From the NCBI GenBank assembly GCA_945877545.1, contig CAMCSO010000003.1:1-52632 (forward strand): a DNA stretch of 52,632 nucleotides. The letters are read 5' to 3'. Made by a program: the position numbers and the translations under genes. The first letter of the stretch is position 1. Every line of letters begins with the position of its first letter. The notes below the pieces were generated by a model. That model did no database searches. It worked only from the letters and a program-made list of their open reading frames with translations, and had not been told where the DNA came from. The DNA comes from Bifidobacterium breve. GTDB lineage: Bacteria; Actinomycetota; Actinomycetes; S36-B12. Below are positions 11,919 to 34,686 of the stretch, piece by piece.

Positions 11919-13018
11919 GCTCGTGCCCTTCGTCCCAATGCGATCCCCATGACCGTACGGGCGAGCTGTTCGTCGGCGTCGCGCACCCCATGCGAGGCCG
12001 CCGCATCGGCCATCGCATCAAGCCGGGAAGGGTCACCGAGAAGCGGTTCTAGCGCCATGAGCAGCGTTGCGGTAGTGAGGTCGGCATCGTCAATGATGAT
12101 GCCGCCATCGGCCCTCACGACCGGCAGGGCGTTGAGCCGTTGCTCGCCGTTTCCGATCGGCAGCGGTACATAGACGGCGGGCAGCCCGACTGCCGCGAGC
12201 TCCGCACACGTCATGGCTCCCGCCCTCGTCAGAGCGATATCGGCCGCCGCATATGCGAGGTCCATCCGCTCGAGGTAGGGCACGCTCACGTAACCAGCAT
12301 GTGCTGGCGGCTGGGGATTGCGGGTCCCATACGCATGAAGCACCTGCACGCCGCCAGCGGTGAGCTCCGCAATTGCGCCGCTCACCGCCTCGTTGAGGCG
12401 GGTCGCTCCCTGGGATCCGCCGAAGACGAGGAGCACCGGCGCGTCGGGCCTCAAGCCGAAGGCCTCGCGGGCCTGCGCACGAAGGGTCGCCCTGTCGAGG
12501 TGGGAAATTGCCTGACGCAGAGGCAATCCGATGACACTCGCGCCGCGGATCGTCCCGGGCACCGAGGAGAACACATGAGGGGTGAGGCGGGCGCCGACCC
12601 GATTGGCAAGACCAGGACGGGCATTCGCTTCGTGCACCACGAGCGGGACCCCGCGGCGGCGGGCGGCGAGGTAGGTCGGGAGGGCTGCATAACCACCGAA
12701 ACCAACCACAATGTCGGCCCGAAACCCATCAAGCAGCCTGGCGGACTCCTGGGTCGCGCGCCAGGCACCTGGGACCACATGAACGAGATCGAGGGATGGC
12801 CGCCGTGGCATCGGGGCCGACCGCACGGTCGCGATGGCATATCCGCGCGCCGGCACGAGTGAGGTTTCTAGGCCCCTCTCGCCCCCGATGACGATGATCG
12901 ACGTGGCCGGGTCGATTCGGAGCAGTGCGTCTGCCAGATTGAGGGCCGGCTCGATATGCCCGGCCGTTCCACCTGCGGCGAGAACAACGCGAAGTGCGTC
13001 AGACCCTGCGACGCTCAT
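11915..13018 (-). CDS. murG: Lipid II GlcNAc transferase MurG
   Basis: [32 protein letters not shown]. Confidence 0.96.
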
Positions 13019-15668: not shown

Positions 15669-16735
15669 GCGCGGACCCACTCGGCGTAGAACACCGTGAG
15701 CCCCGCCCCGATGCACAGGCCTTGGATAATCCAAAAGCGCACGACAATCTGAATCTCAGCCCAGCCGAGCATCTCGAAGTGGTGATGCAGTGGCGCCATT
15801 CGCAGGATTCGTCGGCCGGTGAGCTTGAATGATCCGACCTGGCCGATCACTGAAAGGGAGGTGATGAGGAACAGACCCGCGAGCATCGGGAGCAGGAGCT
15901 CGGTTCGACTCAGGATGGCGAGCCCAGCAATCCCGCCACCGAGCGCCAAAGACCCGGTGTCACCCATGAAAATTCGCGCCGGTGCCGTGTTCCACCACAG
16001 GAATCCAAAGCTCGCCCCGGCGGTGGCCGCCGCCACCATCGCGAGGTCGAGCGGATTCACCGTGGAATAACAGGTGCTTGGATCAACATCGAGGAATGAG
16101 CAGTTTTGGCCGTATTGCCAAAGGCAGATGAGCACATATGACAGGAAGGTCATGATCGAGGCGCCGATCGCAAGACCGTCGAGTCCGTCGGTGAGGTTCA
16201 CCCCATTTGTCGTTGCGGTCACGAGGAACCACACCCACAGAAGGAAGAGTGCCACCGGAAGGACGAGCGAAGTATCGCGGACGAAGGAGACGGCCATCGA
16301 CGCAGGCGTAGGACCCCCATCGGTGAAGTGCAACGACAGCCAGGCGAAGCCCAATGCCACCACGGCCTGGCCAATGAGCTTCGTCCGCGCCCGAAGTCCG
16401 GTGCTCCGCTGCTTGAAGATCTTCAGGTAGTCGTCGGCAAAGCCGACGAGGCCGAGGCCGACCATAAGGAAAATGACGAGGAGACCCGAGGGGGTCATGG
16501 GTCGCCAAGCAAGGAGATGGGTCAAGGCGTAGCCCCCGATGACAGCCAGGATGATCGCCGCGCCGCCCATCGAGGGCGTCCCGCGCTTACCCTCGTGGGC
16601 TGGGTAGAGCTCACCCTCCACTGACACTCGAATCGCCTGCGCATAACCACGGCGAGCGAGCAGTTTGATGAGCAATGGCGTTCCGACAAGCGAAATAATG
16701 GTTGCGATGCCAGCCGCCATGACGATGAGTCTCAC
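15665..16735 (-). CDS. mraY: Phospho-MurNAc-pentapeptide transferase
   Basis: KRGTPSMGG, GFADDY, NLTDGLDGLA, FMGDTGS, APLHHHFE. Confidence 0.97.
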   Translation of the reverse strand: MRLIVMAAGIATIISLVGTPLLIKLLARRGYAQAIRVSVEGELYPAHEGKRGTPSMGGAAIILAVIGGYALTHLLAWRPMTPSGLLVIFLMVGLGLVGFADDYLKIFKQRSTGLRARTKLIGQAVVALGFAWLSLHFTDGGPTPASMAVSFVRDTSLVLPVALFLLWVWFLVTATTNGVNLTDGLDGLAIGASIMTFLSYVLICLWQYGQNCSFLDVDPSTCYSTVNPLDLAMVAAATAGASFGFLWWNTAPARIFMGDTGSLALGGGIAGLAILSRTELLLPMLAGLFLITSLSVIGQVGSFKLTGRRILRMAPLHHHFEMLGWAEIQIVVRFWIIQGLCIGAGLTVFYAEWVRA

Positions 16736-18114
16736 GACTGGTCCTTCGACATGAGGGCCGCTGCCAGACGTTCAAGTCCGATGCTCCGGGACGCTTTGAC
16801 GAGCACCACATCACCGGGGCTGAGCTCACTGCGAAGTAGGGTGATTGCCTCATCGGGGGTGGCAACCCACGTCGCTTCCGTGAGAAAAGAGCCCTCGGCC
16901 TTACACGCTCGCTCCATGGGACGTGCGCCCTCGCCGATGCCCACCAACCTGGTAATTCCCAGATCGCCGACCAGCCGGCCGATTGCCTCGTGCTCCGCCT
17001 CCGCGGTCTCGCCAAGCTCCTTCATCTCGCCGAGAACAGCCCAGCTGCGATGACCCGTCGACATCGACGCAAGGACCTCTAGTCCGGCGCGCATCGAGTC
17101 GGGGTTCGCGTTGTACGCGTCATTCACGATGATCCAGCCCTCTTCGGACTCACGCACCTCCATGCGCCACTTGCTCTGGGGCATCGATGCGCCAAGTGCC
17201 GCGGCAATCGACTCGATCGGCACCTTAAGGGTGACGCCCACCGCGGCCGCGGCCAGCGCGTTGTGCGCCGAGTGCTCGCCGCGCAGAAGCAGTGCGACCG
17301 GGACAGCCCTGTCACCGTGGTGGAGGGTGAATGCAGGGCAGGCGCGGTCATCGAGTCGAAGGTCGGTTGCTCGGACGTCGCAGGAGGGGCCAACTCCGAA
17401 CGTCATGACGGTAGCCGCCGTGCGGCTGGCCTGCTCCATCACGGCCGCATCGTCCCCATTGACGATCGCAACCCCATCCGTTGGCAGCCCTTCGAGGATT
17501 TCTCCCTTGGCCCGCGCGATTGCCCCGACCGACCCGAGCATGCCCAGATGGGCCGAGCCTATATTGATGAGGACTCCCACGGATGGAGTGGCAATCTCGC
17601 AGAGGTATCGGATGTGACCCTCCCCCCTCATCCCCATCTCGAGCACGAGGTATTCGGTCGTTTCGTCGGCCCGCAAGATGGTGAGCGGCACTCCGACCTC
17701 GGTGTTGAAGGAGCCTGCTGCGGCAACGGTCCGGCCGCTTCGGCTAAGTACCTGCGCGACGAGATCCTTCGTACTCGTCTTGCCGCTCGAACCGGTGATT
17801 GCCACGACCGTGCATGTCAGCCGGTGGGTGCGAACCCAATGGGCGAGTCGACCGAGTGCGTGGACCGGATCGTCAACGACGAGACATGGGCCGTCAATCA
17901 CCCGAGCAGACAGTGTCACGCAGGCTCCGCTCTTGCGAGCCTGCGAAGCGAAGGCATGGCCATCGGCCCGCTCACCGGCAATCGCCACGAACATCGCTCC
18001 CGGCGCGGCCTCACGCGAGTCGACGACGACATCGGTAACCCAGGTCGCGACATCAACCTCATGGCAGACACCGCCAACGACGGCACATATCTCCCCTACG
18101 GTCATGGGAATCAT
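16732..18114 (-). CDS. murF: UDP-MurNAc-tripeptide--D-Ala-D-Ala ligase
   Basis: GSSGKTSTK, SFNTEVG, NDAYNANPDS, VKASR. Confidence 0.96.
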   Translation of the reverse strand: MIPMTVGEICAVVGGVCHEVDVATWVTDVVVDSREAAPGAMFVAIAGERADGHAFASQARKSGACVTLSARVIDGPCLVVDDPVHALGRLAHWVRTHRLTCTVVAITGSSGKTSTKDLVAQVLSRSGRTVAAAGSFNTEVGVPLTILRADETTEYLVLEMGMRGEGHIRYLCEIATPSVGVLINIGSAHLGMLGSVGAIARAKGEILEGLPTDGVAIVNGDDAAVMEQASRTAATVMTFGVGPSCDVRATDLRLDDRACPAFTLHHGDRAVPVALLLRGEHSAHNALAAAAVGVTLKVPIESIAAALGASMPQSKWRMEVRESEEGWIIVNDAYNANPDSMRAGLEVLASMSTGHRSWAVLGEMKELGETAEAEHEAIGRLVGDLGITRLVGIGEGARPMERACKAEGSFLTEATWVATPDEAITLLRSELSPGDVVLVKASRSIGLERLAAALMSKDQS

Positions 18115-19652
18115 TGATCACCGTCCGACATCCCCAGAGCCTGTCGAACCTCGTCACGATCGTCGAAGGGCAGGATCGTCCCGGTGATCTCCTGCCCCTG
18201 CTCATGTCCCTTACCGAGTACGAGCACGATGTCACCCGGTTGAGCGAGTGTCACGGCACGTCGAATCGCAAGTCTCCGGTCAGCGACCTCCTCCACATCT
18301 GCTCGGGTGCCGGCATCCAGGGCACCTTGCATGACCGCGGCCCGGATCGTTGCCGGATCCTCGGAGCGTGGATTGTCGTCGGTGACGATGACCACATCTG
18401 CGTGAGCGGCGGCGCGCGCACCCATGATCGGCCGCTTTGCCCGATCGCGGTCACCGCCAGCACCGATAACGACGATGACTCGCCCGGTCGTGTCCAAGCG
18501 GACAGTCGCGATCGCGGCCTCCATGGCGTCGGGTGAATGTGCGTAGTCGACGATCGCGGTCACCGGTCCGCCACGGCCAATCCACTCCATCCTGCCCGGC
18601 ACATGTACCTGCGACAGGCCGAACGCAGCCACGGAGCCCTCAATGCCAATCTGGCGGAGCATGACGAAGGCGCAGAGGGTGTTCGCCCGGTTGAAGGCGC
18701 CAGGGAGAGGCATGTGAAGGAGTGTCCGCTCCCCACCAGGCCCCTCGGCCATCCAGCCACCATCGCGGGGGGACAGGGTCCAATCGGCGCGCTTGGGTGC
18801 GCCCGGCGTTGTCGAGGGATCCGCGCGCGCAGACCAGGTGACCACCGGCACAGTCGCTTGTTCACTTAGGCGCCGACCCCAAGCGTCGTCGATGCCGATC
18901 ACTGCTAGTTCGCAGCGCGACGGGGTGAATAAGGCGGCCTTCGCCTCGAAGTACGCGTCCATCGTCCCGTGATAGTCAAGATGGTCCTGGCTGAGATTCG
19001 TGAATCCGGCGACCGCGAACCTCACGCCGTCGACCCGGCCCTCCTCGAGTGCATGACTTGACACCTCAACCGCGACGGAGTCCACACCCACCTCGCGCAT
19101 GACCCCGATTATCGCGTGAAAGTGAGGGGCTTCGGGTGTGGTGCGCGTCGAGGTGAGGTGCGTGTCGCCAATTCGGATCCCAATCGTTCCGATCACACCA
19201 GCCGTTCTTCCTGCAGCGCGCAGGCCCGCCTCAAGCAGGTATGACACCGTCGTCTTGCCGTTCGTGCCGGTAATGCCGAGGACTGTCATCGCCTCGGCTG
19301 GCCTTCCGTAGATGGTCGATGAGAGTTCTGCGAGACAGGCGCGCGGCGACGTCACCTCGAGTATTGGTACTCGCCTCCGTGCGCCGGCGGGCAGCAGGCT
19401 CAGGCCCTCGCTGTCGGTGAGGATCGCCGCTGCCCCACGGTCGACGGCCTGCTCGGCAAAGACCGCCCCGTGTAACACATGACCCGGCAGCGCCGCGAAG
19501 AGGTCGCCCGGTCGTACCTGCCTGGAATCGAGTTCGACACCTGTGACGAATCCACCCGCACTGCCGTGCACGCAGACAAGGTCGGGGCCGATCACCAATT
19601 CCAACACGCCTATCGACGTCTCTTGGATCGCCGGCCTCGGCAGTCGCTCCAC
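18111..19652 (-). CDS. murE: MurE ligase, diaminopimelate-adding type
   Basis: GTNGKTT, TTPE, EVSSHA, DYAHSPD, DNPR motif, GKGHE. Confidence 0.96.
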   Translation of the reverse strand: MERLPRPAIQETSIGVLELVIGPDLVCVHGSAGGFVTGVELDSRQVRPGDLFAALPGHVLHGAVFAEQAVDRGAAAILTDSEGLSLLPAGARRRVPILEVTSPRACLAELSSTIYGRPAEAMTVLGITGTNGKTTVSYLLEAGLRAAGRTAGVIGTIGIRIGDTHLTSTRTTPEAPHFHAIIGVMREVGVDSVAVEVSSHALEEGRVDGVRFAVAGFTNLSQDHLDYHGTMDAYFEAKAALFTPSRCELAVIGIDDAWGRRLSEQATVPVVTWSARADPSTTPGAPKRADWTLSPRDGGWMAEGPGGERTLLHMPLPGAFNRANTLCAFVMLRQIGIEGSVAAFGLSQVHVPGRMEWIGRGGPVTAIVDYAHSPDAMEAAIATVRLDTTGRVIVVIGAGGDRDRAKRPIMGARAAAHADVVIVTDDNPRSEDPATIRAAVMQGALDAGTRADVEEVADRRLAIRRAVTLAQPGDIVLVLGKGHEQGQEITGTILPFDDRDEVRQALGMSDGDQ

Positions 19653-19657
19653 TTGGA

Positions 19658-21466
19658 CTACGGCTTGCTGTTGACGACGAGTGGGAGGTTCGGAGGTTTC
19701 GTGCCAGTCGGGGGAATCTGGCGCGCCTGAAGGGCATAGGTCATGACCCGCTTGAAGACCGGGCCCGCAAGCCGCCCACCGTAGCGTCCCTTCTTCGGGT
19801 TTACGAGGGCAACTGCGACGACGAGCTGGGGATCATCGATCGGTGCCATCCCGATGAACGAGGCAACCACGCCCTTACCGTAACCGCCATTCAAGGGATC
19901 GAACATCTGGGCGGTTCCCGTCTTCCCCCCCACCCGATAGCCCCGGATTCCGGCCTTTGGAGCCGTTCCACCTTCTCCGACGACCGCCTCCAACATAAGG
20001 CGAATCTGGGCAGCTGTCCCCGGCGACACCACTCGGGTGGTTTTCGGTGCGGGAAGGGGAACCGCCGTGCCGTCCGGTTTCGTGACGGATCCAACGAGCG
20101 AGGGCTCGATACGCACCCCATCGTTGGCGATCGTCGCGAAAATGCTCGCCGCCTGAACACTGTTGAGGCTCAACCCTTGCCCGAAGGCGATAGTCGGGAA
20201 GGTCGTCGGAGACCATTCCGGGTAGGAAGGAACGCTGCCGGACCCCTCACCGGGAAAGTTCAGTCCAGTCTTCTCGCCAATCCCGAATTTCTTCAAGTAG
20301 CCGAGCAGGACGCGCCCGCCGATCCGCTCGGAGGCCATGATCGCCCCAATATTGCTCGACTTCGCCATGATCCCGGTGAGGGTCAGCACCTCGGCTCCGG
20401 GGGCATCGTGGTCACGAAAGAACTTTCCGCCACGCTCCAGCCTGCCGGGCACCTTGAACGTCGCATTGATGTTGGATGCGCCCTCGTTGATGACCGCGGC
20501 GAGGGTCATCACCTTGCTCGTCGAGCCAGGCTCGTAGACATCGCGGAGCGCGCGGTTGCCCCGTTGGTCCGCGGGCGCCTTCGAGACCTCGTTCGGGTTG
20601 AAGGTCGGCTCGGTGGCTAGGGCGAGAATGTGCCCGGTGCGCGGATCCATCACGACGACGGTTCCGCTGTCTGACCGCGAACTTTTCACCTTCTCCGCGA
20701 GGACTTGCTGAGCAATGTATTGAATGTCACGATCGATCGTCAGAGTGATATCCACGCCCGCGGTCGCCTCGACCCGGGTTTTCTCCGCGGTTGGGATGGC
20801 ATTCCCACCCGGACCCCGCTCATACGTCGACTTACCCTCAATCCCAGCGAGTTGCTCGTCGAACGCGAACTCGATGCCTTCCAGACCAGCGCCCTCGGCC
20901 CCAACGAAACCCACGACGTTCGCAGCCAGATCATCCGCTGGGTAGATGCGCCGTGATGAGGATGCGCCGACGAGACCAGGGATCCGAAGGGCCTCGATTC
21001 GTCGCCAGGTCTCCGGCGTGAGGCCCTTCTCGATAACGACGAAGCGTCGATTACCTGTGAGCTTCAAGGCCAGTACCCGAGGATCAACCCCAAGGATCGG
21101 CGCCAGCTCGTCGGCAGCGGAGCGCGGATCCACGATCATCGTTTGGTCGGCAGTGAGATCGCGCGACTCGACCGTCGCCGCCAAGATTTCCCCCTTTGCA
21201 TCCATGATTGACCCACGCAGGGCAGGGAGAGTCACTGTGCGCAGCCGCTGGTCGAGGGCCTCGCCAGCGAGGGCCTGACCCTTGACCGCCTGAAGTTCGA
21301 CGAGCCGCACCGCGAATCCACCGAGCACCAAAAAGGTGATGACCATCAGGGCGATACCGCGCTTCCGGGGGTCGCCAAGGGTGAGGAAGTCCCGACTTAC
21401 TGGTCGGCGATATCCACGTGAATCGCGAAGCGGCTTGGCTCGAACTGGCGCCCGAGTCTGGGTCAC
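19658..21466 (-). CDS. ftsI: Class B penicillin-binding protein FtsI/PBP3
   Basis: N-terminal TM, RGSIMD, SxxK (STSK), SxN (SSN), KTG (GKTGTAQ). Confidence 0.95.
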   Translation of the reverse strand: MTQTRAPVRAKPLRDSRGYRRPVSRDFLTLGDPRKRGIALMVITFLVLGGFAVRLVELQAVKGQALAGEALDQRLRTVTLPALRGSIMDAKGEILAATVESRDLTADQTMIVDPRSAADELAPILGVDPRVLALKLTGNRRFVVIEKGLTPETWRRIEALRIPGLVGASSSRRIYPADDLAANVVGFVGAEGAGLEGIEFAFDEQLAGIEGKSTYERGPGGNAIPTAEKTRVEATAGVDITLTIDRDIQYIAQQVLAEKVKSSRSDSGTVVVMDPRTGHILALATEPTFNPNEVSKAPADQRGNRALRDVYEPGSTSKVMTLAAVINEGASNINATFKVPGRLERGGKFFRDHDAPGAEVLTLTGIMAKSSNIGAIMASERIGGRVLLGYLKKFGIGEKTGLNFPGEGSGSVPSYPEWSPTTFPTIAFGQGLSLNSVQAASIFATIANDGVRIEPSLVGSVTKPDGTAVPLPAPKTTRVVSPGTAAQIRLMLEAVVGEGGTAPKAGIRGYRVGGKTGTAQMFDPLNGGYGKGVVASFIGMAPIDDPQLVVAVALVNPKKGRYGGRLAGPVFKRVMTYALQARQIPPTGTKPPNLPLVVNSKP

Positions 21467-26323: not shown

Positions 26324-27562
26324 ATGCGAGCCCTGAAGTGGATTCTTCTGGTCATGGCACTGCTCGCCGCTTCCGTCGTCATCGGCACCCTCATATTCGT
26401 CGATGAATCTGAGAGCACAACGGCCAAGCGACAAGACGCCCTCGCGCAGTTCTACGAGGCGCCATCGCCGATCCCGCAAGAACTCGGCACCGTCGTTCGC
26501 ATGGAGCCACTGGGAGTCGACGTCCCGGGCGGTACCGGATACCGCATGCTCTACGTCTCGCAGCGACCCGACAGTGAAAGGGCTGTCTCCGGTGGCATGC
26601 TCTTCATCCCATCGACCCCTGCGCCCGCTGGGGGCCGACCCGTAGTCGCCTGGGCCCATGGCACCCTCGGCATGGGCGATGCCTGCACCCCCTCCCGCTC
26701 GACGAATCCCCTGCAAGACACCGACAACTGGCTGGGCGAGATGATGAATCTCGGATGGATTGTCGTGTCGACCGACTACGTAGGGATGGGCACTCCCGGG
26801 CCGAACCTCTATCTCGTCGCTCAGGCCGAGGCCCGCGACGTTGTGAACTCGGTGCGGGCCGCACGAAACGTGCCCGAGGCACATGCCGGCAACCGGTTTA
26901 TCGCATGGGGCCACTCTCAAGGCGGGCACTCGTCGCTGTGGACCGGGCACCTCGCGAAATCCCTGGCACCAGAGCTCGACCTGATCGCGGTCGCGGCCGC
27001 AGCTCCCGCCGCTGAACTCAACAGCATCATCGGGGCACAGTGGAACACCCCGGTCGGATGGGTCATCGGCCCGGAGGTCGAGCAGTCATGGCCGGTCGTC
27101 TATCCGAACCTGCCCCTTGAAGGTGTCGTCACTGCACGCGGACTGGCGAACAGCGAGCGGCTCGCGAATGAGTGCATCACAGTAGCCGGGATTGAGGGAC
27201 TAGCCCGAACAGACCTTGGTCAGGACTACTTCGTCGCCGACCCGTTGACGAACAAGGCGTGGGCTGGGGCCGGTCAGGATCAAACGCCTTTGCCCCTTCC
27301 AGCCGACATGCCGGTGATGATTGCTCAGAGCACTGCTGATGAGGTCGTTCTCGCTTGGCCCAATGCGCTGCTTCAGCTGGCGTGGTGCTCCGCTGGCTCG
27401 ACAATTTCGATGCTGTGGCTCGGCGAGGTCACCCATCAGGCGACCGCGGTCGTCGCAGGACCTGCTGTTGTGGCATGGATCGCCGATCGATTCGCAGGTC
27501 GGCCGGCCGGACGCACCTGCGACGTGCCTCCGCCGGTACGTGCTCCAGCCCAGTCGGGCTAG
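26324..27562 (+). CDS. Secreted lipase-family alpha/beta hydrolase
   Basis: N-terminal hydrophobic anchor, WAHGT, TDYVG, GHSQGG nucleophile elbow, candidate Asp (ADEVV) and His (VTH). Confidence 0.85.
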   Translation: MRALKWILLVMALLAASVVIGTLIFVDESESTTAKRQDALAQFYEAPSPIPQELGTVVRMEPLGVDVPGGTGYRMLYVSQRPDSERAVSGGMLFIPSTPAPAGGRPVVAWAHGTLGMGDACTPSRSTNPLQDTDNWLGEMMNLGWIVVSTDYVGMGTPGPNLYLVAQAEARDVVNSVRAARNVPEAHAGNRFIAWGHSQGGHSSLWTGHLAKSLAPELDLIAVAAAAPAAELNSIIGAQWNTPVGWVIGPEVEQSWPVVYPNLPLEGVVTARGLANSERLANECITVAGIEGLARTDLGQDYFVADPLTNKAWAGAGQDQTPLPLPADMPVMIAQSTADEVVLAWPNALLQLAWCSAGSTISMLWLGEVTHQATAVVAGPAVVAWIADRFAGRPAGRTCDVPPPVRAPAQSG

Positions 27563-27954
27563 AGGCCGCCTTCTTCGTTGCGCTTACGCCACCGGTCCTC
27601 GAGACGGTCCATGAATCCACTGGACTTTGGTTCCCGGCGCTGATCGGCAGAAGCCTGAGCCCCGGGCTCCTGCTCAACAGTGGCCGATGGAACGCGGAAC
27701 GCGGAGTAGGCGATGACCGCGCCAATAAGCATGAGGGCGAAGCCGCCGACGCCGAGTGCGATCATGGTGCTGCTAACGCCCGCCAAAATGAGCCCGAGCC
27801 CGACAAGAACACCAAGGACACCGAGGGCAGCACGGCCACGTGACGCACGCACCCCGTTTGCCGATCGCAGGCTCGTCGCGAACTTCGGATCCTCCGCGTA
27901 GAGAGCGCGCTCCATTTGGTCGAGCAGGCGCTGCTCATGCTCAGATAGCGGCAT
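27559..27954 (-). CDS. DUF3040 membrane protein
   Basis: MPLSEHEQRLLDQMERALYAEDPKFA, two TM, FMDRLEDRWRKR; SD GGAAGG. Confidence 0.88.
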   Translation of the reverse strand: MPLSEHEQRLLDQMERALYAEDPKFATSLRSANGVRASRGRAALGVLGVLVGLGLILAGVSSTMIALGVGGFALMLIGAVIAYSAFRVPSATVEQEPGAQASADQRREPKSSGFMDRLEDRWRKRNEEGGL

Positions 27955-28179
27955 GGCCAAACCCCTTCCGTGGTGGAACGGCACAAACATTACGCCCTGT
28001 GAGAGCGCTACAAGGCCCAAGGATATGCCTGAGCACCGTCGAGCGAAACCTGAGTTGTCGAATCTGGTGTGTCATAGCCACATTCGTCTCCGAGTCATCG
28101 GCACTTACTCCCCCATTCCAGCACGATTTCAACCAAATTGTCGGCGATTTCAATCGAACGATCACTGGCGCCTGCCTCC

Positions 28180-29433
28180 TCATCGCGAATATTCCTCGCC
28201 CGGCGGTAGTTCGACGAGTCGCGCGGGCCGCACCGATGTTGATCCAAATCGGGCCCGAATGGAGTCCACTGCTATCTCAGCCTCGCGGCGACCTTGCTCA
28301 GGCGCTCCGAGCGTGAGCTGGCGCGCGGCACCCTGCGCCGGCTGAAGGCCCTCAACGCGGATACCGACGAGGCGGATTCTCGCCCGCTGGAGCCCGAGTG
28401 CATCGAAGAGTCCTCGTGCTGTGTCATAGAGGTCCTGCGTCACGTCGATCGGACCGGGCATCGTCTTGGATCTCGTGATGGTCGTGAAGTCGGCGAATCG
28501 AACCTTGAGCTGGACCGTGCGACCCACCTGCTCTGTCGAGCGCAGTCGTGCTCCCACCTGGTCGGCGAGCTTCAGCAGATGTGCGTGAATGGCGATGGCG
28601 TCGTCAATATCGTCGTCGAAGGTCTCCTCGGCGCCGATGCTCTTCTCCGGCTCGCCAGGGCTCACCCGCCGGGAATCCCTACCCCAGGACAGCTCATGAA
28701 GATGCCGACCGGTCGCCTGACCCAGCGCTCGCTGAAGGGTCGCCACCGGGGTACTCGCGATGTCGCCCACCGTGCGCAGGCCGAGCCGTTCAAGTTGCTC
28801 CTCGGTCTTCTCTCCGACCCCCCAGAGCGCCCCTACCGGCAGGGGATGCAGGAACTCGATGACCTGCTCGGCCGGAACGACGAGAATGCCGTCCGGCTTG
28901 CTGCGGGTCGAGGCCAATTTCGCGACAAACTTCGTCGATGCCACACCAACCGAGCAGGTGATGCGCTGCTCGTCAAAGACTCGGGAGCGAATGAGCTCGC
29001 CGATCGCCGTCGGTGAGCCGAGTCGGCGCAGGGCTCCTGCTATGTCAAGAAAGGCCTCATCGAGACTCAGCGGCTCAACGAGTGGAGTGACAGAGTGGAA
29101 GAGCGACATGACGCCCCGACTGACCTCGGCGTAGGCCCGGTGGTCTGGGGGGATGATGACGGCGTCGGGCGCGAGCCGGCGAGCCCTTGAGATAGGCATA
29201 GCCGAGTGCACACCCATGGCCCGTGCCTCGTATGTGGCCGAAAGCACGACGCCGCGCCCACCAGCACCACCGACGATAACGGGCGTACCGTGCAGCTCCG
29301 GCCTGCTGCGTAGTTCGACGGATGCGTAGAAGGCGTCCATGTCGACATGAAGAATCGTGCAGCCGCCATCGTCAACACCGAGGCCCATGGGCCCACTCGA
29401 CCGCCGAACCTGGCTTCGACTCACAGTTGCCAT
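28180..29433 (-). CDS. dinB: DNA polymerase IV (Y family), catalytically intact
   Basis: HVDMDAFYASVE, YEARAMG, SLDEAFLD, KPDG, LWGVG, little-finger SIGAEETF; C-terminal QLTL and helix-strand tail. Confidence 0.94.
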   Translation of the reverse strand: MATVSRSQVRRSSGPMGLGVDDGGCTILHVDMDAFYASVELRSRPELHGTPVIVGGAGGRGVVLSATYEARAMGVHSAMPISRARRLAPDAVIIPPDHRAYAEVSRGVMSLFHSVTPLVEPLSLDEAFLDIAGALRRLGSPTAIGELIRSRVFDEQRITCSVGVASTKFVAKLASTRSKPDGILVVPAEQVIEFLHPLPVGALWGVGEKTEEQLERLGLRTVGDIASTPVATLQRALGQATGRHLHELSWGRDSRRVSPGEPEKSIGAEETFDDDIDDAIAIHAHLLKLADQVGARLRSTEQVGRTVQLKVRFADFTTITRSKTMPGPIDVTQDLYDTARGLFDALGLQRARIRLVGIRVEGLQPAQGAARQLTLGAPEQGRREAEIAVDSIRARFGSTSVRPARLVELPPGEEYSR

Positions 29434-29434
29434 C

Positions 29435-29478
29435 TTCTACCAGCCATTGCGGTTCTACCAGCCATTGCGGTTCTACCA
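29435..29478. repeat. 18-bp tandem repeat (2.4 copies) at dnaE2-dinB junction
   Basis: ttctaccagccattgcgg x2 then ttctacca. Confidence 0.92.
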
Positions 29479-32400
29479 TCCACTGCTGCTCCCAGGGCTC
29501 GCGTGCCACAGTCTCCTGTCGGGAAGGCTCGCCCCTCTCACCGGAAGCGGGGAACTGCCCAGCTCTGGCCCGGCCGGCCGCACATCCGCGTACGGCGACT
29601 GGCGGAAGCCGCTCGCATGGACGAGTACTCGTTTGCTCATCGGGCCGTCGTCAACGAAGCGGTCGGCGTCGAGGATCCCAAGGAGTGCCTCGGCCCCGTT
29701 CGAGAGCCATAGATCGCGCACCCACCCCAACTCCCAGGCACCGGTCGCCCGGACCGACACACCTCGTGGGCCGGTCCGGCGGACCTCGCCCCGCACGAGG
29801 AGCAGCCATGATCCGAATACCGTTCGCGCGTACGGGCCCTGGGCATCCTCGAAGAAGGTGGCGTCGATTGGCCCGGTGGAGTCGTCGAGGGTCAGGAATA
29901 CGACACGCCGGCCCGAGCGGATCGGCGGGGTCTGCGTGGCAACCTTTACGCCAGCGATGAGCACCTCCTGGTGTGATCGGCAGGAGAGCATCCGGTTGGC
30001 CCGTGTCACGCCGAGTTGCCGGAGCAGTTCCGAATGGAAGTCCATGACATGGTGGCTGACATCAAGTCCGAGAACATCAAGTTCAGCACGGACAAGTTCA
30101 GACGCGCTCATCTCTGGAAGCCCTGACGGCTTCAACTCATCGTCACCGAGCGCAAATGACAACTGCGCCGTGCAGTCATTCGTGCTTCGGCTACTCCGCG
30201 CTAGGTCTGAGATCTGTAGGAGCAGGTCACGCCGGGTGATGCGGCCACGCTGACGAACCTTGCGGTCAGTGTTGAATCCGTAGACCGTGTCGAATGCTCC
30301 GGCGATGACGAGCCGCTCGATGGTCGGGCGGGCTAGGCCCGCACGGTGCCAGGCATCGACGAGCGACGAGTACGGCTGGCCGATCGCGATACTCGTCACC
30401 TCCTCATCGGAGATGCCCTTCACATCGGCGAATGGGAGTCGAATCCCCCAGGTAGCGTCCGGCCCGGACTCGACCCGGTAGGCCTCGGATGACCGATTGA
30501 TGTCCAGACCAAGAATCCGCACGCCGTGATTGCGGGCATCGTCAAGGATGAGCCGTTTTGGATACATGCCGGGATCGTGTGTGAGGATCCCGGCATAGAA
30601 GGGGGCCGGGTGATGAGCCTTCAACCATGCCGACTGATAGGTCGGCATGGCGAAAGCTGCGGCATGCGCCTTGCAGAAGCCGAATGAGGCGAACGACCGA
30701 AGCACATCCCATACCTTCTCGACTACGCCGAGCGCATAGCCCCGGCGAATCGCGGCAGGGTAAAACCAGACCCGGACCTCGTCAATGCCTGCTGGCGAGT
30801 TCATCGAACGCCTGCTTTCATCGGCCTCTGCCAATGAGCACCCGGTCATGATCTCGACGATGCGCATGACCTGCTCATGGAAGACCACAACACCGTAGGT
30901 TTCTTCGAGCACCTGCCGCAGGTCCTGATGGAGGTACTGCGGCGCGTTCCAGCCCTGGCGCGCCCGCAGGAACGGCGTGATCATGTCTGACTTCACCGGC
31001 CCGGGACGGAACAGCGAGATGTCGATGATGAGGTCGGCGAAGGTCTCCGGCGCGAACTTACCGATGAGTTCCCGCTGGCCCGGCGACTCGATCTGAAAAC
31101 AGCCGAGCGTACGGGTGGATCGGATGAGGTCAAAGGTCCGCTCATCGTCAAGTGCCGATGTGTCGAGTTCGATTCGCTCCCCCGTGGTCCTCTCGATCTC
31201 ATCGATCGCGTGGGCCATCGACGATTGCATTCGTACACCGAGCACATCAAGTTTGAGCAGGCCCATCTCTTCGACATCGACCTTGTCGAACTGGCTCATC
31301 GGATAGCCTGCGGCGCTCGGCTCGACCGGTGTCCGGTTGAGCAGCGAGGCATCCGAGAGCAGCACCCCGCACGGATGCAGGGCGACGTGTCGAGGCAGCC
31401 CATCAAGGGACTCGACGAGACTGAGGAATGAATCGAGGTCGCCCCGCGCAGCGAGCCTGCCGAAGCTGGAGTTGCGCAGTTCGGGCAGATCAGCGAGTGC
31501 TGCGCGGGCATCGCGCGCGCGGATATGCGGAAAGGCTTTGGCAAATAACCCGATATCACCGGGTGGCATGCCTAACGCTGCGCCCACATCGCGGACCGCA
31601 TGCCGCACCCGATATGTCTCCATCATCGACACACACGCCACACGTTCGGCCCCGAAGCGCTCGAAGATGAGGTCGTAGGCCTCAAGACGGCGGGCGGCCT
31701 CCACGTCAATATCAATGTCGGGCAGCACTCGGCGCAATGGCGACAAAAAGCGCTCCATAAGCAATCCGTGCCTGATCGGATCAACGCCCGAAATACCGAG
31801 GAGGTGATTGACGAGACTTCCCGCTCCTGATCCGCGGGCCGCAACCCTGATCCCCCGAGCCCTGATCAGCCTGACGACCTCGGCGACGGTGAGGAAGTAC
31901 CCGGCGAAGCCCAGCTTCGTGATGGTCTGCAGTTCATCGGTGAGCCTGACACGCGCAGCACCGCGGTCGACAGCACTCGGATAGGCCCCATTGATTGCAT
32001 GGGCACACTGCCGCTGCAGGATCCGGTCGGCTTCGCGGATCGACGAGGCTGTATCACTCGACACCTGCCGGTTCAGCAGCACATCGAGTTCGGGGACGAA
32101 GACCTCGCCAAGCCCGAGGTCGCCAGCCGGGTCGATCACGCACTCCTGCGCCAGATCGAGCGTGCTGCGTAGCAGGTCACTCGGATCACACCCAGCAACC
32201 GCCGAGATCTCAGCGGCCACCACTGCGAGTTCAGCGGGCGACTTCAGATGCGCCTCGCCATTGTTGAGCGAGAAGCGGTGCGAGCCGAGTGGCACGAGAA
32301 GTCGCGCCGAATCGAGTACATCGGCAACTCGTGCATCACTTCGGTCAAGGTGCCGCACAGCGTTCGTGAGCACGACCGGGATCCGCCATCCGTTCGCCCA

Positions 32401-33060
32401 CTGCCACATCCGGGCGTCCGACACGGTCGACGCTGGATGGCCTGCTGCGGTTCGGTGACTGGTGAGCGCGACCCGAAGGTCAAGAGCAGCGATCGAGCGC
32501 AGGGCCCGTAGCGAATCATCGGCGCGGTTCGCCCGGCCACTCGCGAGATGCAAAGCGAACTCCGATGTCCATCCGAGCAGTACGACCAGTCCTTCGCCGT
32601 GCTCCTCGAGCGCTTTCCATGGCAGCCACGGCATCCCCCGCTCGGTATGCGCGCCACCGTGGGCGATCGACACGACTCGGCACAGGGAGGCCCACCCGCG
32701 CCGGCCCTTCGCGAGAAGAACGACCCTCGGCCGATGCTCATCAATCCACTGCCCGCCACGGGCCGGGGTACGGCGGCTGGTGCTCAGCTTGGTATCCGGG
32801 ACCAGCTTGGTATCCGGGACCAGCTTGGTATCTGGAAGTAGCGACTCGACGGCAAGGTCGACACCGAGCACTGTCGCGATTGACCCTCGCTCACATGCCC
32901 GGACCCATTGCACCGCGCCATACAACCCATCACGGTCCGCGAGGCCGATGATGTTGTGCCCATCGGCGACCGCCCTGTCGATGAGCCGCTGGGGCGTCGA
33001 CGTTCCGTACTGCAGCGAGTAGCTCGATGCCACCTGCAGATGCGGCCATGCGTATGCCAT
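29473..33060 (-). CDS. dnaE2: Error-prone DnaE2-like C-family DNA polymerase
   Basis: RGSGAGS, PDIDID, KLDVLG, FQIESPGQ, GFCKAHAA, OB domain; PHP metal ligands absent; in LexA-boxed operon. Confidence 0.88.
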   Translation of the reverse strand: MAYAWPHLQVASSYSLQYGTSTPQRLIDRAVADGHNIIGLADRDGLYGAVQWVRACERGSIATVLGVDLAVESLLPDTKLVPDTKLVPDTKLSTSRRTPARGGQWIDEHRPRVVLLAKGRRGWASLCRVVSIAHGGAHTERGMPWLPWKALEEHGEGLVVLLGWTSEFALHLASGRANRADDSLRALRSIAALDLRVALTSHRTAAGHPASTVSDARMWQWANGWRIPVVLTNAVRHLDRSDARVADVLDSARLLVPLGSHRFSLNNGEAHLKSPAELAVVAAEISAVAGCDPSDLLRSTLDLAQECVIDPAGDLGLGEVFVPELDVLLNRQVSSDTASSIREADRILQRQCAHAINGAYPSAVDRGAARVRLTDELQTITKLGFAGYFLTVAEVVRLIRARGIRVAARGSGAGSLVNHLLGISGVDPIRHGLLMERFLSPLRRVLPDIDIDVEAARRLEAYDLIFERFGAERVACVSMMETYRVRHAVRDVGAALGMPPGDIGLFAKAFPHIRARDARAALADLPELRNSSFGRLAARGDLDSFLSLVESLDGLPRHVALHPCGVLLSDASLLNRTPVEPSAAGYPMSQFDKVDVEEMGLLKLDVLGVRMQSSMAHAIDEIERTTGERIELDTSALDDERTFDLIRSTRTLGCFQIESPGQRELIGKFAPETFADLIIDISLFRPGPVKSDMITPFLRARQGWNAPQYLHQDLRQVLEETYGVVVFHEQVMRIVEIMTGCSLAEADESRRSMNSPAGIDEVRVWFYPAAIRRGYALGVVEKVWDVLRSFASFGFCKAHAAAFAMPTYQSAWLKAHHPAPFYAGILTHDPGMYPKRLILDDARNHGVRILGLDINRSSEAYRVESGPDATWGIRLPFADVKGISDEEVTSIAIGQPYSSLVDAWHRAGLARPTIERLVIAGAFDTVYGFNTDRKVRQRGRITRRDLLLQISDLARSSRSTNDCTAQLSFALGDDELKPSGLPEMSASELVRAELDVLGLDVSHHVMDFHSELLRQLGVTRANRMLSCRSHQEVLIAGVKVATQTPPIRSGRRVVFLTLDDSTGPIDATFFEDAQGPYARTVFGSWLLLVRGEVRRTGPRGVSVRATGAWELGWVRDLWLSNGAEALLGILDADRFVDDGPMSKRVLVHASGFRQSPYADVRPAGPELGSSPLPVRGASLPDRRLWHASPGSSSGW
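32785..32835 (-). repeat. 18-bp in-frame tandem repeat in DnaE2 PHP loop (PDTKLV x about 3)
   Basis: cagcttggtatccgggac x2 plus near-identical third copy. Confidence 0.92.
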
Positions 33061-33130
33061 AAGTGATCAAATCCTTCGTGCATCGCCTCGGCTGAACCAC
33101 GAGACGTCATGGGAAGTCAGATGAGAAGGG

Positions 33131-33216
33131 GCAGTGGTCGCCAGTTCAACAAGACACGGGGGGTCGCCGAACTGGCGACCACTGCTGACCGGCTGCCGGG
33201 GGAACCAGCCGGGTCA
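33131..33216 (-). other. Tandem intergenic hairpins with C-rich loops
   Basis: Perfect 17-bp IR gcagtggtcgccagttc (33131-47) / gaactggcgaccactgc (33169-85), abutted by a second stem 33186-33216. Confidence 0.75.
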
Positions 33217-33224
33217 CAGGCCGA

Positions 33225-33710
33225 TCAGCCGGTATGTCGGAGACCGGCGATCAGCATGGTCTGATGGGGCAGGCCGAGCGCCCCGGTGACACGGGCCAAG
33301 AATGCATCGGCATCCCGGACAAGATCATCTGCCTCGCGGGCGGTGACGCATGGCACGCCCGCCTCCGCCGCGGAACGCTTGCGTGCACTGGCGGCAAAGA
33401 AGGCAGCCCATTCCGTGAACTCAATTGCCACCTCAGGCAGCACCACCCAAACGCTGCGGACCTGCCGCCGACGCTTGCCGTTTGGCTGGCTCCGAGTTGC
33501 GAGTACGGCCGCCGCCGCGCGCAGTGCGGCCAGATGCGCAGCCGCGTAACGCTCACAGGGCGTGCTCGCGATCACGGCCTCGGTCAGGCTCCTGCGCGCA
33601 GAAGCCACGAGATCTCGGGCCGATGCGGGCAGCGGCGCACGTGCAGGCGACCCGGTGCTGGCCGCACGCGGCAGGCAAACCGTCGCTACGGTGCTCGTCA
33701 GGGTGGTCAT
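33225..33710 (-). CDS. SAV_6107-family HEPN-domain protein
   Basis: ERYAAAHLAALRAAAAVLA, SVWVVLPEVA.EF.EWAAFFAA.A.KR.AAEAG, READDLVRDA; SD GAGGAG. Confidence 0.85.
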   Translation of the reverse strand: MTTLTSTVATVCLPRAASTGSPARAPLPASARDLVASARRSLTEAVIASTPCERYAAAHLAALRAAAAVLATRSQPNGKRRRQVRSVWVVLPEVAIEFTEWAAFFAASARKRSAAEAGVPCVTAREADDLVRDADAFLARVTGALGLPHQTMLIAGLRHTG

Positions 33711-33746
33711 GTCGCTCTCCTCGTCAATGCTGGATGTTCGACCCGG

Positions 33747-34040
33747 CTAATCACTGATCCTGAGGAGTTGCCATGCATCGGCAACCACCGCCAGGTCATA
33801 CACACCAGAGGTTCCGGTGCGCGATACCGCTTCGACCCGCCAGACATCGCGATGCGCTGCCCGACCATTCGACCCTGCTGAACCCAGTTCCCGCCACCAC
33901 AATGTCGCCTCGACCCAGCATGCAAGCACTTCCTGCACCTCGTAGCGCCGACCCTTCCAGCGAAACCCCGACGGAGCCCCGCTCTCATGCACGGTCACCC
34001 GAACCGCCTGGACGGTGGGTGACCTAAAACGGCGACTCAC
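33747..34040 (-). CDS. DUF6504-like small beta protein (ImuB C-terminal-domain-like)
   Basis: P.GFRWKGRRYEV.EVL..W.E...WW...RDVWRVEA...GVYDL...W.L.RI.D; start GTG 34040 with GAAAGG SD. Confidence 0.8.
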   Translation of the reverse strand: MSRRFRSPTVQAVRVTVHESGAPSGFRWKGRRYEVQEVLACWVEATLWWRELGSAGSNGRAAHRDVWRVEAVSRTGTSGVYDLAVVADAWQLLRISD

Positions 34041-34151
34041 CGGTGTCGGCCTTTCAGGTCGACCCGTCTGCCGGGCTCGGGGTCGAGGCGAGCTCGGCAG
34101 ACGGGTACGTGACCATTCGACCTCAGCCGCGAATCCGAGATCGAACCGTAT

Positions 34152-34167
34152 TCGAACATTTGTTCGA
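34152..34167. promoter_or_regulatory. LexA (SOS) box
   Basis: TCGAAC-ATTT-GTTCGA, exact actinobacterial consensus; palindrome extends 34146-34173. Confidence 0.95.
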
Positions 34168-34176
34168 ATACGGGAT

Positions 34177-34198
34177 ACGCTAGCCCCCGCCCCTGACA
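34177..34198 (-). promoter_or_regulatory. PafBC-type (RecA-NDp) DNA-damage promoter
   Basis: TGTCAG-N10-TAGCGT, matching TGTCRG-N10-TANNNT. Confidence 0.8.
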
Positions 34199-34290: not shown

Positions 34291-34686
34291 ATGAGTGAGA
34301 AGGACAGCCAAGCCGACTGGCGAGGGGTCGGCGACTCAATCAAGGACCTCGGAAAGAAGCTCAAAGCGCACGCTGACGACGCGCAGGATGCCATCAAGTC
34401 CAGCAGCGCTCCGCTCACTGGTGTCGCAGAGCAGGTCGGTGCAGTGTTCAAGACCGGGATCGCAAAACTCGATGAGGCAGCGACCGATCCTGCCGTTGGC
34501 GCAGCAGCGCGTGGCGCAACCGGCAAGTTCCTCGACGCGCTTAAGGCGCAGCTCGGTGCTGACAAACCCAGCGCCGACAAACCGGCGCCAGTAACCGGAG
34601 AGGACGCAGCGCGCGACACGACCGAGCCAGCAACTGAGCAGCCCACCGACCCGCAACCCGATCCCAAGGCACCGTCTGGGACGTGA
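34291..34686 (+). CDS. Hypothetical helical protein with P/T/E-rich tail
   Basis: AAGGAG SD before ATG 34291; amphipathic WRGVGDSIKDLGKKLKAH. Confidence 0.7.
   Translation: MSEKDSQADWRGVGDSIKDLGKKLKAHADDAQDAIKSSSAPLTGVAEQVGAVFKTGIAKLDEAATDPAVGAAARGATGKFLDALKAQLGADKPSADKPAPVTGEDAARDTTEPATEQPTDPQPDPKAPSGT

What the first reader, a model, noticed from the sequence alone, without database searches (positions are those of the whole stretch)
28180..34198. Non-canonical mutasome operon: DUF6504 + HEPN + DnaE2 + active DinB, with no ImuA/ImuB in the cassette
Seen: four co-oriented genes behind one damage promoter (PafBC-type element plus perfect SOS box) with structured spacers. Known: DnaE2 normally works with ImuA' and catalytically dead ImuB, which supplies clamp binding and a C-terminal DnaE2-binding domain. 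Here those roles look redistributed: DnaE2 has its own QLSF, the ImuB-C-like domain is a separate 97-aa gene, the Y-family partner is intact with a clamp motif and RecA-N-terminus-like tail, and a HEPN protein is included. Inference: a distinct two-polymerase translesion/mutagenesis system with a HEPN accessory subunit. Best candidate for an undescribed system in this window, though the individual parts are known families.
Basis: partly seen in the sequence, partly recalled or inferred. Interest (0 to 1): 0.85.

Follow-up and report, generated by a model that had tools for sequence, protein, structure and literature searches.

The report
Actinobacterial SOS polymerase operon with HEPN
This is a real DNA-damage-induced operon for two error-prone DNA polymerases and two small helper proteins, of a type already described in actinobacteria, except that its most constant member, a small HEPN protein, seems not to have been discussed.

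Summary
On the minus strand, four co-oriented genes lie behind one damage promoter: a standalone ImuB-C/DUF6504 gene, a HEPN_SAV_6107 gene, a divergent DnaE2 and an active DinB-type Y-family polymerase. The promoter has a RecA-NDp/PafBC-like motif 31 nt upstream of the window's only perfect LexA box. No ImuA' or ImuB was found in this 90.5%-complete genome.

The claim that the system is undescribed does not hold. NAR 2019 (PMC6511836) and NAR 2026 (PMC12926913) describe ImuA/ImuB-less variants. These include an actinobacteria-only "DnaE2-[ImuB-C]-PolY-RecA" type built on a "DnaE2B" group, which this cassette matches.

The cassette is also common. The order ImuB-C, HEPN, DnaE2, DinB occurs in 22 of 39 HEPN loci that I fetched from 32 families of the class.

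One part may be new. The HEPN gene is the most constant member and often overlaps dnaE2 by a few bases. It keeps an SOS box even where the polymerases are missing. It is not mentioned in the main texts I read; supplements were closed. Its role is inferred from gene context only.

Verdict: a new member of a known, so far only predicted, kind, with one testable extra component.

The parts
34177..34198 (-). RecA-NDp/PafBC-type promoter-like motif, TGTCAGGG-N8-TAGCGT
   Evidence: Read directly. The consensus is recalled, not from a call. The same motif class lies upstream of 33 of 77 related loci, against 1 of 1251 control segments. Two adjacent WYL-domain genes (PafBC-like) are in the genome.
34152..34167 (.). 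Perfect actinobacterial LexA (SOS) box, 9 nt downstream of the -10-like hexamer
   Evidence: the only zero-mismatch match in the window. It is perfect in 50 of 77 related loci and has at most 1 mismatch in 63 of 77, against 3 of 1251 control segments. LexA is present in the genome.
33747..34040 (-). Standalone ImuB-C (DUF6504) gene, 97 aa counted from the GTG at 34040; the longest ORF reaches 34199
   Evidence: PF20114 E 5e-14. The model is all-beta with pLDDT 86. The terminal W-x6-D and the WW motif are invariant in 32 orthologues.
33225..33710 (-). HEPN_SAV_6107 gene, 161 aa, a non-catalytic HEPN-fold protein
   Evidence: PF18726 E 5e-33. The model has pLDDT 90.7 and is a helical bundle. The top PDB fold matches are HEPN domains, but with weak E-values of 0.02-0.9.
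33131..33185 (-). Long hairpin (20-bp uninterrupted helix) within the 164-nt HEPN-dnaE2 spacer (33061-33224)
   Evidence: All 13 of 13 spacers from related genomes hold a 14-22 bp helix, with different sequences in different lineages.
29473..33060 (-). DnaE2B-type error-prone C-family polymerase, 1195 aa
   Evidence: Pfam domains. Scores are below both the DnaE2 and the DnaE1 cut-offs. One search shows the PDIDID and KLDVLG motifs kept, the PHP H-x-H changed to H-x-A, and the QLSF motif. It lies in a clade apart from ImuB-linked DnaE2.
29435..29486 (-). 18-bp tandem repeat (2.9 copies) that makes up the dnaE2 stop / dinB start spacer
28180..29433 (-). Active DinB-type Y-family polymerase, 417 aa, with a QLTLG clamp-type motif and a RecA-NT-like tail

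Best explanation
This is one DNA-damage-induced operon that encodes the ImuA/ImuB-independent actinobacterial 'mutasome' variant already predicted in the literature as DnaE2B-[ImuB-C]-PolY-RecA.

Shown here:
- Four tightly linked, co-oriented genes sit behind a promoter in which a PafBC-type element replaces the -35 region.
- A LexA box sits over the expected transcription start.
- Both polymerases keep their catalytic motifs.
- Each polymerase has a clamp-type motif.
- DinB has a RecA-NT-like tail.
- No ImuA' or ImuB was found in the genome.

Inferred:
- After damage, LexA cleavage together with PafBC activation switches the operon on.
- RecA takes the place of ImuA.
- ImuB-C docks on the DnaE2 PHP domain, as modelled in PMC12926913.
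- The two polymerases are delivered to the clamp at lesions.
- The HEPN_SAV_6107 protein, the most constant gene of the cassette, is a non-catalytic accessory or regulatory factor of this damage response.
- The conserved hairpin after the HEPN gene sets the ratio of the small proteins to the polymerases.
For: Gene identities come, and the promoter.

Literature match: PMC12926913 and PMC6511836.

DnaE2 subgroup. The window protein scores 626 bits on NF004225, while an ImuA'-ImuB-linked DnaE2 from a relative scores 1393. All 31 cassette DnaE2 sequences form one clade (SH-aLRT 100) apart from 3 ImuB-linked ones (quick tree). Q-L-x-[L/F] is present in 29 of 31 cassette DnaE2 and is a gap in all 3 DnaE2A.

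Order-level census of 41 genomes. HEPN is present in 38. It is followed on the same strand by the second DnaE in 33 of 38 and by PolY in 33 of 38. The three genomes that carry an ImuB-like gene next to DnaE2 lack DUF6504; in one of them, G013, ImuA' and a DnaE2 of the ImuB-linked type were confirmed. The one near-complete genome without HEPN (G038, 99% complete) also lacks PolY and a second DnaE.

80 named loci, of which 66 could be judged: ImuB-C-HEPN-DnaE2-PolY 27, HEPN-DnaE2-PolY 10, HEPN-PolY 16, ImuB-C-HEPN-PolY 5, HEPN alone 8.

Class-level sample. PF18726 is present in 102 of 121 genomes. Of 39 fetched HEPN loci from 32 families, 22 hold the full cassette and 35 have an SOS box with at most 1 mismatch upstream.

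Stop/start overlaps or gaps of 12 nt or less between HEPN and dnaE2 occur in many loci (starts are my estimates).
Against: There are no expression data: no RNA run holds the region.

Nothing here shows that the proteins bind each other.

The genome is 90.5% complete in 307 contigs, so imuA'/imuB could lie in the missing part.

The profile comparison of the DUF6504 alignment with the ImuB C-termini of three relatives was only weak (E 0.0096, probability 4%). Equating DUF6504 with ImuB-C therefore rests on Pfam, on shared motifs seen by eye, and on the papers.

HEPN_SAV_6107 stands without any polymerase gene within 12 kb in 10 of 39 class-level loci and in 8 of 66 named loci. It also lies in a conserved syntenic block next to DUF3040 and the cell-division cluster. 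Part of its linkage could therefore be inherited gene order.
Confidence: 0.75

Rival explanations
1. HEPN_SAV_6107 is an SOS-regulated gene with a job of its own, for example RNA- or nucleic-acid-binding in the damage response, or a link to the neighbouring cell-division cluster. On this view the polymerase genes were inserted into its operon in many lineages, and it is not part of a polymerase complex.
For: It is a near-universal single-copy gene of the class (102 of 121 genomes, 76 of 86 genera), which is wider than the cassette. It occurs without polymerase genes in 10 of 39 loci and 8 of 66 loci; 7 of those 10 keep an SOS box with at most 1 mismatch, and 3 of those 8 keep a perfect one. 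It always lies next to DUF3040 and the dcw cluster. A C. glutamicum gene of unknown function, cg2381, is in the LexA regulon and is induced by ciprofloxacin (PMC5055667, passages). PF18726 matches in the C. glutamicum control genome, but I could not verify that cg2381 is that gene.
Against: Where polymerases are present, the HEPN gene sits between imuB-C and dnaE2, often with overlapping stop and start codons, which is typical of co-translated partners. PolY follows it in 58 of 66 loci. Among 41 relatives, HEPN and strong PolY hits are present or missing together in 41 of 41, but kin are not independent and two of the three genomes lacking both are about 60% complete.
Confidence: 0.35
2. The cassette is only a co-regulated set of two independent translesion polymerases. 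DinB works alone on the clamp and DnaE2 works alone, with no multi-subunit mutasome.
For: Each polymerase keeps its catalytic residues and has its own clamp-type motif. HEPN-DinB pairs exist without DnaE2 (16 of 66 loci), and DnaE2 lies on another contig from DinB in one relative (G018).
Against: The DnaE2B clade, the standalone ImuB-C and this DinB group travel together across 22 of 39 class-level loci. Published AlphaFold models support complexes of this type (PMC12926913, passages); I did not see the models. The RecA-NT-like tail is conserved.
Confidence: 0.2
3. The HEPN protein is a toxin of a HEPN-type toxin-antitoxin or defence module that merely lies nearby.
For: It belongs to the MNT-associated HEPN clade in the classification of PMC3710099 (Table 1 passage).
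Against: That table lists the Rx4-6H catalytic motif as not conserved in this family. No nucleotidyltransferase partner lies in the cassette. The gene is a single-copy, vertically conserved core gene behind an SOS box, which is not the pattern of a mobile defence gene.
Confidence: 0.03

Closest known systems
DnaE2-[ImuB-C]-PolY-RecA putative mutasome of Actinobacteria (DnaE2B group; representative Tessaracoccus lapidicaptus; PMC12926913)
   Same: It has a DnaE2 outside the ImuB-linked group, a standalone ImuB-C, an apparently active PolY with a RecA-NT motif, and no ImuA/ImuB in the genome, and it is restricted to Actinobacteria. A Propionibacteriaceae locus (L044) has the same gene order as the window.
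   Different: The main text of that paper does not mention the HEPN_SAV_6107 gene that sits between imuB-C and dnaE2: 'HEPN' occurs 0 times. It also does not describe the dual LexA/PafBC-type promoter or the intra-operon hairpin.
Mycobacterial ImuA'-ImuB-DnaE2 mutasome
   Same: It is a damage-induced, error-prone C-family polymerase working with a Y-family-fold partner, an ImuB-C domain and a RecA-like partner. A relative (G013) carries this canonical set.
   Different: Here the Y-family protein is catalytically intact, ImuB-C is a separate 97-aa gene, and ImuA' was not found. DnaE2 carries its own Q-L-x-[L/F] motif and belongs to another clade.
Geobacter sulfurreducens lexA-imuB-C-polY operon (cited in PMC6511836, section 17)
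   Same: It is a standalone ImuB-C with an active PolY in a damage-induced single transcript.
   Different: It has no DnaE2 and no HEPN gene, and it is from another phylum.
E. coli Pol V (UmuD'2C-RecA) and B. subtilis YqjW-YqjX/YolD
   Same: Both combine a PolY bearing a RecA-NT motif with a small regulatory subunit under SOS control. The HEPN protein could be an analogous small subunit; this is a hypothesis.
   Different: UmuD' and YolD are beta-rich proteins, whereas HEPN_SAV_6107 is an all-helical bundle. No binding has been shown.
HEPN superfamily, HEPN-M (SAV_6107) family (PMC3710099, Table 1)
   Same: Pfam PF18726 matches at E 5e-33, the predicted fold is HEPN-like, and the family is restricted to actinobacteria.
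   Different: That survey lists no gene context for the family. Here a constant SOS/translesion-polymerase context is documented.

Membership tests
DnaE2B-[ImuB-C]-PolY-RecA module (PMC12926913) | The DnaE2 lies outside the ImuA/ImuB-linked DnaE2A group | tested here: met
   It scores 626 bits against 1393 for an ImuB-linked DnaE2 on NF004225. It falls in a separate clade with SH-aLRT 100 (quick tree, with only 3 DnaE2A and 1 DnaE1 as outgroups). I could not place it on the authors' own tree.
DnaE2B-[ImuB-C]-PolY-RecA module (PMC12926913) | The genome lacks ImuA and ImuB | tested here: met
   neither was found in a 90.5%-complete genome of 307 contigs. This means not found, not proven absent.
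DnaE2B-[ImuB-C]-PolY-RecA module (PMC12926913) | An active PolY with a RecA-NT motif is linked to DnaE2 | tested here: met
   The catalytic D31, D33 and E126 are invariant in 39 orthologues. The tail motif (A385, A388, D390, F396, G397) is conserved. Its likeness to the own RecA N-terminus was judged by eye only.
ImuB-C superfamily (PMC3765255) | Small beta-rich domain with a conserved C-terminal tryptophan and conserved basic residues | tested here: met
   W90 and R68 are invariant and R31 is nearly invariant in 32 sequences. The model is all-beta with pLDDT 86. There is no PDB analogue, as the 2026 paper also reports.
ImuB-C superfamily (PMC3765255) | Detectable homology to the C-terminal domain of ImuB | tested here: inconclusive
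   hhalign against one ImuB gave E 0.051. Against three ImuB C-termini of relatives it gave E 0.0096, probability 4%. The shared WW motif and the terminal W...D are visible by eye. PF20114 matches in the Caulobacter control genome, but the place of the match is not given.
Canonical ImuA'-ImuB-DnaE2 mutasome | A catalytically dead ImuB with a fused ImuB-C, and an ImuA' partner | tested here: not met
   The only Y-family gene has intact catalytic residues. ImuA' was not found.
HEPN superfamily, catalytic RNase type | A conserved Rx4-6H motif at the start of the last core helix | tested here: not met
   The alignment of 49 sequences has no such motif in the C-terminal helix. An R54-x4-H59 pair lies in the second helix instead. 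PMC3710099, Table 1, also lists the motif as not conserved.
HEPN_SAV_6107 (PF18726) | Pfam model match above the gathering score, and a helical-bundle fold | tested here: met
   It scores 113.9 bits against a cut-off of 27.2. The model has pLDDT 90.7. The best PDB fold matches are HEPN domains, with target-normalised TM 0.53-0.64 for the five HEPN-domain rows, but weak E-values.
LexA/PafBC dual-controlled promoter | A LexA box and a RecA-NDp motif at a fixed spacing | tested here: met
   The spacing is 31 nt here. It is 29-32 nt in 29 of the 32 loci that have both elements. Binding of LexA or PafBC cannot be tested with these tools.

The most novel reading that the evidence does not exclude
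HEPN_SAV_6107 is an unrecognised core component of the actinobacterial SOS translesion machinery. On this reading it is a non-catalytic HEPN protein that acts as the small regulatory or adaptor subunit for the RecA-dependent DinB, and for DnaE2B where that is present. It would be functionally analogous to UmuD', YolD or ImuA'. This would explain why it is more constant in the operon than ImuB-C.
Probability: 0.3. Interest if true: 0.65.

Novelty: new member of a known kind. Interest (0 to 1): 0.4.

Why it matters
Error-prone polymerases drive damage-induced mutagenesis, including the rise of drug resistance in actinobacteria. The ImuA/ImuB-independent variants have so far only been predicted by computation.

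This window adds nothing new about the polymerases themselves.

The comparative work does show that a small HEPN-fold gene of unknown function is the most constant member of this SOS operon across the class Actinomycetes. It also shows a conserved promoter that combines a LexA box with a PafBC-type element.

If the HEPN protein proves to be an accessory factor, the published subunit lists for these mutasomes are incomplete. HEPN domains would also gain a non-nuclease role in DNA repair.

Tried and rejected
- **Complex prediction, DinB alignment A3 with HEPN alignment A1.** The verdict was 'no answer', score 0.00, and the controls were not run. I count this neither for nor against binding. The single job is spent, so HEPN against ImuB-C, the DnaE2 PHP domain, RecA or the clamp was not tried.

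- **The look-up of sequencing runs, kind rna.** No RNA holder is listed, and the two runs shown are of unknown kind. Read laying was not used. There is no evidence on expression either way.

- **ImuB-C and HEPN fusions.** The search for longer relatives of ImuB-C gave 25 hits. None carried a Y-family domain, and 8 carried both PF20114 and PF18726. In all 8 the domain matches are truncated, and each is a singleton from one contig. I take them as probable frameshift or gene-calling artefacts, not as Rosetta-stone fusions.

- **ImuB C-terminus comparison.** hhalign of ImuB-C against ImuB C-termini was inconclusive.

- **Structure and look-alike searches.**
  - PDB sequence searches for HEPN and ImuB-C found nothing below E 0.1.
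  - Foldseek for ImuB-C found no analogue.
  - The Atlas search gave only generic HEPN neighbours.

- **Promoter and terminator scan.** One sigma-70-like site and four terminator-like sites were found, which is no more than the shuffles give.

- **cg2381.** The text search was swamped by human CpG probe names. Whether C. glutamicum cg2381 is the HEPN homologue stays unverified.

- **A wrong-frame ORF.** I first read a 269-aa ORF between the HEPN gene and dinB in L026 in the wrong frame. The real gene there is a class I SAM methyltransferase.

- **Not-in-print searches.**
  - 'DUF6504': 0 papers.
  - 'SAV_6107': 1 paper.
  - 'HEPN' with 'DnaE2': 0 papers.
  - 'HEPN' with 'translesion', 'Actinobacteria' and 'LexA': 1 unrelated paper.
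  - Supplements of the two NAR papers were closed and may list the HEPN gene in operon tables.

Full report
**What is there.** The window appears to come from a freshwater actinobacterium of the Candidatus Nanopelagicales type. The closest named locus, L005, carries that title and shares 92% identity in the HEPN and DnaE2 proteins. The minus strand between 28180 and 34198 carries four co-oriented genes.
- The first is a DUF6504 protein (PF20114, E 5e-14).
- The second is a HEPN_SAV_6107 protein (PF18726, E 5e-33).
- The third is a 1195-aa DnaE-like polymerase. It scores below the curated cut-offs of both the error-prone DnaE2 model (626 bits against 939) and the DnaE1 model.
- The fourth is a 417-aa DinB, above the cut-off of NF003015.

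The longest DUF6504 ORF (150 aa) runs over the promoter elements.

**Promoter.**
- At 34198-34177 there is a motif of the form TGTCAGGG-N8-TAGCGT. It fits the mycobacterial RecA-NDp/PafBC promoter consensus, which I recall from memory rather than from a call.
- Nine bases after its -10-like hexamer lies the only perfect LexA box in the window, at 34167-34152.
- The genome encodes LexA, one RecA and two adjacent WYL-domain genes of the PafB/PafC kind.
- The arrangement is conserved. Among 77 assessable related loci, 50 have a perfect box, 63 have a box with at most one mismatch, and 33 have the NDp-like motif.
- In 29 of the 32 loci with both elements, the two start 29-32 nt apart.
- Among 1251 control segments from the same loci, 3 had a box and 1 had the motif.
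- With the LexA box over the expected transcription start, firing should need both LexA removal and PafBC. This is an inference.

**The proteins.**
- *DinB.* It keeps the catalytic D31, D33 and E126, which are invariant in 39 orthologues. It has an invariant Gln in a QLxLG clamp-type motif. Its conserved tail resembles the RecA N-terminus of the same genome by eye. This is what PMC6511836 calls a RecA-NT motif.
- *DnaE2.* It keeps the PDIDID and KLDVLG polymerase motifs. The second His of the N-terminal PHP H-x-H is replaced by Ala. Q-L-x-[L/F] is present in 29 of 31 cassette orthologues; the other two read QVPL and QMSL. The three ImuB-linked DnaE2 proteins of relatives have a gap at that place. 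In a quick maximum-likelihood tree, the 31 cassette proteins form one clade (SH-aLRT 100), apart from those three and from the genome's DnaE1.
- *The small DUF6504 protein.* It is predicted to be all-beta (pLDDT 86) and has no PDB analogue. It has an invariant WW pair and a terminal W-x6-D, which the ImuB C-termini of relatives also show by eye. The profile comparison was only weak.
- *The HEPN protein.* It is a confident helical bundle (pLDDT 90.7). Its best, though weak, PDB matches are HEPN domains. It lacks the canonical Rx4-6H motif.

**ImuA and ImuB.**
- In the 2.97-Mb, 90.5%-complete genome, the Y-family model finds only this DinB.
- An ImuB protein from a relative hits only DinB.
- The ImuA' model gives one sub-threshold hit, which lies inside recA.
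- A relative of the same family (G013) carries a canonical ImuA'-ImuB-DnaE2 set, with DnaE2 scoring 1393 bits on NF004225. That relative has only a HEPN-DinB pair at the syntenic site and no DUF6504. The searches could therefore have found these genes.

**It is already described.**
- Aravind et al. 2013 (PMC3765255, passages) defined ImuB-C and its standalone forms next to DinB and DnaE2.
- Timinskas and Venclovas 2019 (PMC6511836; passages, and section 17 read whole) described ImuA-less variants with an active or inactive PolY, a standalone ImuB-C and/or DnaE2, with RecA proposed to replace ImuA.
[quoted passage not shown] It states that DnaE2-[ImuB-C]-PolY-RecA occurs only in Actinobacteria.
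- The window fits that description feature by feature, so it is not an undescribed system.

**How common it is.**
- *Close relatives.* I searched 41 genomes of the same order, own genome included. HEPN is present in 38. It is followed on the same strand by the second DnaE in 33 and by PolY in 33.
- *Named loci.* 80 named loci came from a collection scan, kept as the best 80 of 488 and therefore biased towards the query. Of these, 66 reach far enough downstream to judge.
  - 27 read ImuB-C-HEPN-DnaE2-PolY.
  - 10 read HEPN-DnaE2-PolY.
  - 16 read HEPN-PolY.
  - 5 read ImuB-C-HEPN-PolY.
  - 8 have HEPN alone, among them Streptomyces and Pseudonocardia.
- *Even samples.* In an even sample of the class, PF18726 is in 102 of 121 genomes and 76 of 86 genera, almost always as a single copy. 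In a phylum-wide sample it passes the cut-off in only 8 of 151 genomes; all but one of these are of the same class.
- *Class-level loci.* From the class sample I fetched 40 loci from 32 families. I picked them for family spread and contig position, and left out the unpublished genomes. Of the 40, 39 held HEPN by tblastn.
  - 22 have the full cassette.
  - 2 are cut after dnaE2.
  - 1 has DnaE2 and PolY without a detected ImuB-C.
  - 4 have HEPN-methyltransferase-DinB.
  - 10 have no polymerase within 12 kb.
  - 35 have an SOS box with at most one mismatch upstream, including 7 of the 10 without polymerases.

**The part that may be new.**
- The HEPN gene is the constant element of the cassette. 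ImuB-C is missing in many relatives that keep HEPN-DnaE2-DinB: 8 of the 38 order-level genomes with HEPN have no PF20114 hit at all.
- The HEPN gene often overlaps dnaE2 by a few bases or lies within 12 nt of it (starts estimated).
- It stays in front of DinB where DnaE2 is absent.
- The one 99%-complete relative without it also lacks PolY and a second DnaE.
- The main texts of the three polymerase papers do not contain the word HEPN.
- The HEPN survey (PMC3710099, passage of Table 1) lists no context for the family.
- No paper in the searchable library joins HEPN with DnaE2.
- This supports a functional link to the SOS/translesion response but does not show what the protein does. It also sits in an old syntenic block: HEPN, then in many lineages a SAM methyltransferase, then DinB, DUF3040 and mraZ/dcw. 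It can occur alone, so an independent SOS function remains a serious rival.

**Spacers.** The 164-nt HEPN-dnaE2 spacer is specific to this lineage, since most other orders have almost no gap there. It folds far better than shuffles (z -4.59). All 13 spacers I examined from related genomes hold an uninterrupted helix of 14-22 bp. The stem sequences differ between lineages, and there are compensatory changes within the genus. No T-run follows the helix. I read it as an intra-operon RNA element that tunes the ratio of the upstream and downstream products; this is inference only. The 39-nt dnaE2-dinB spacer is made of extra copies of an 18-bp unit that includes the dnaE2 stop.

**Verdict.** The cassette is a widespread actinobacterial SOS operon of a published, computationally predicted type.

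Noticed in passing
window 32785-32832: [quoted passage not shown] Same-genus orthologues differ in length by 6 aa (1195 against 1189 aligned residues), which suggests copy-number variation.
   Followed up: partly
window 29435-29486: The dnaE2 stop / dinB start spacer consists of 2.9 copies of an 18-bp unit that contains the dnaE2 stop codon. The gap is about 21 nt in some same-genus genomes and 39 nt in others.
   Followed up: partly
L026 9245-10183; L022 13279-14238; L023 9580-10371: In many lineages a class I SAM-dependent methyltransferase gene lies between dnaE2 (or the HEPN gene) and dinB. In Streptomyces it lies between the HEPN gene and DUF3040. The two copies I compared are 49% identical. 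It is detected in 23 of the 39 class-level loci. It is absent from the window.
   Followed up: partly
window 27559-28020 (-), and 1630-21466: The cassette lies directly upstream of a DUF3040 gene and the cell-division/cell-wall cluster (ftsW, ftsI), with ileS further on. The order HEPN ... DUF3040 is kept across the class.
   Followed up: partly
window 33225-33710 (HEPN residues 54-64): A nearly invariant R54-x4-H59-x4-R64 pattern lies in the second long helix. This is not where the HEPN RNase motif normally sits, and its meaning is unknown.
   Followed up: no
G038 (unnamed relative, 99% complete): This genome lacks the HEPN gene, any Y-family polymerase and a second DnaE. It keeps a lone DUF6504 match at C114:29563-29952.
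   Followed up: no
window 34295-34594 (+): A divergently oriented small ORF (99 aa) has no Pfam match and starts about 95 nt from the damage promoter. It might share the regulatory region.
   Followed up: no
proteins P0284, P0287, P0290, P0295-P0297, P0300, P0301: These database proteins carry both DUF6504 and HEPN_SAV_6107 matches; P0284 also has a PHP match. All are singletons with truncated domain matches, so they are probably frameshifted gene calls.
   Followed up: yes
Corynebacterium glutamicum control genome: PF18726 matches in C. glutamicum. Its LexA-regulon gene cg2381, of unknown function, is induced by ciprofloxacin (PMC5055667). Whether cg2381 is the HEPN homologue could not be checked.
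   Followed up: partly
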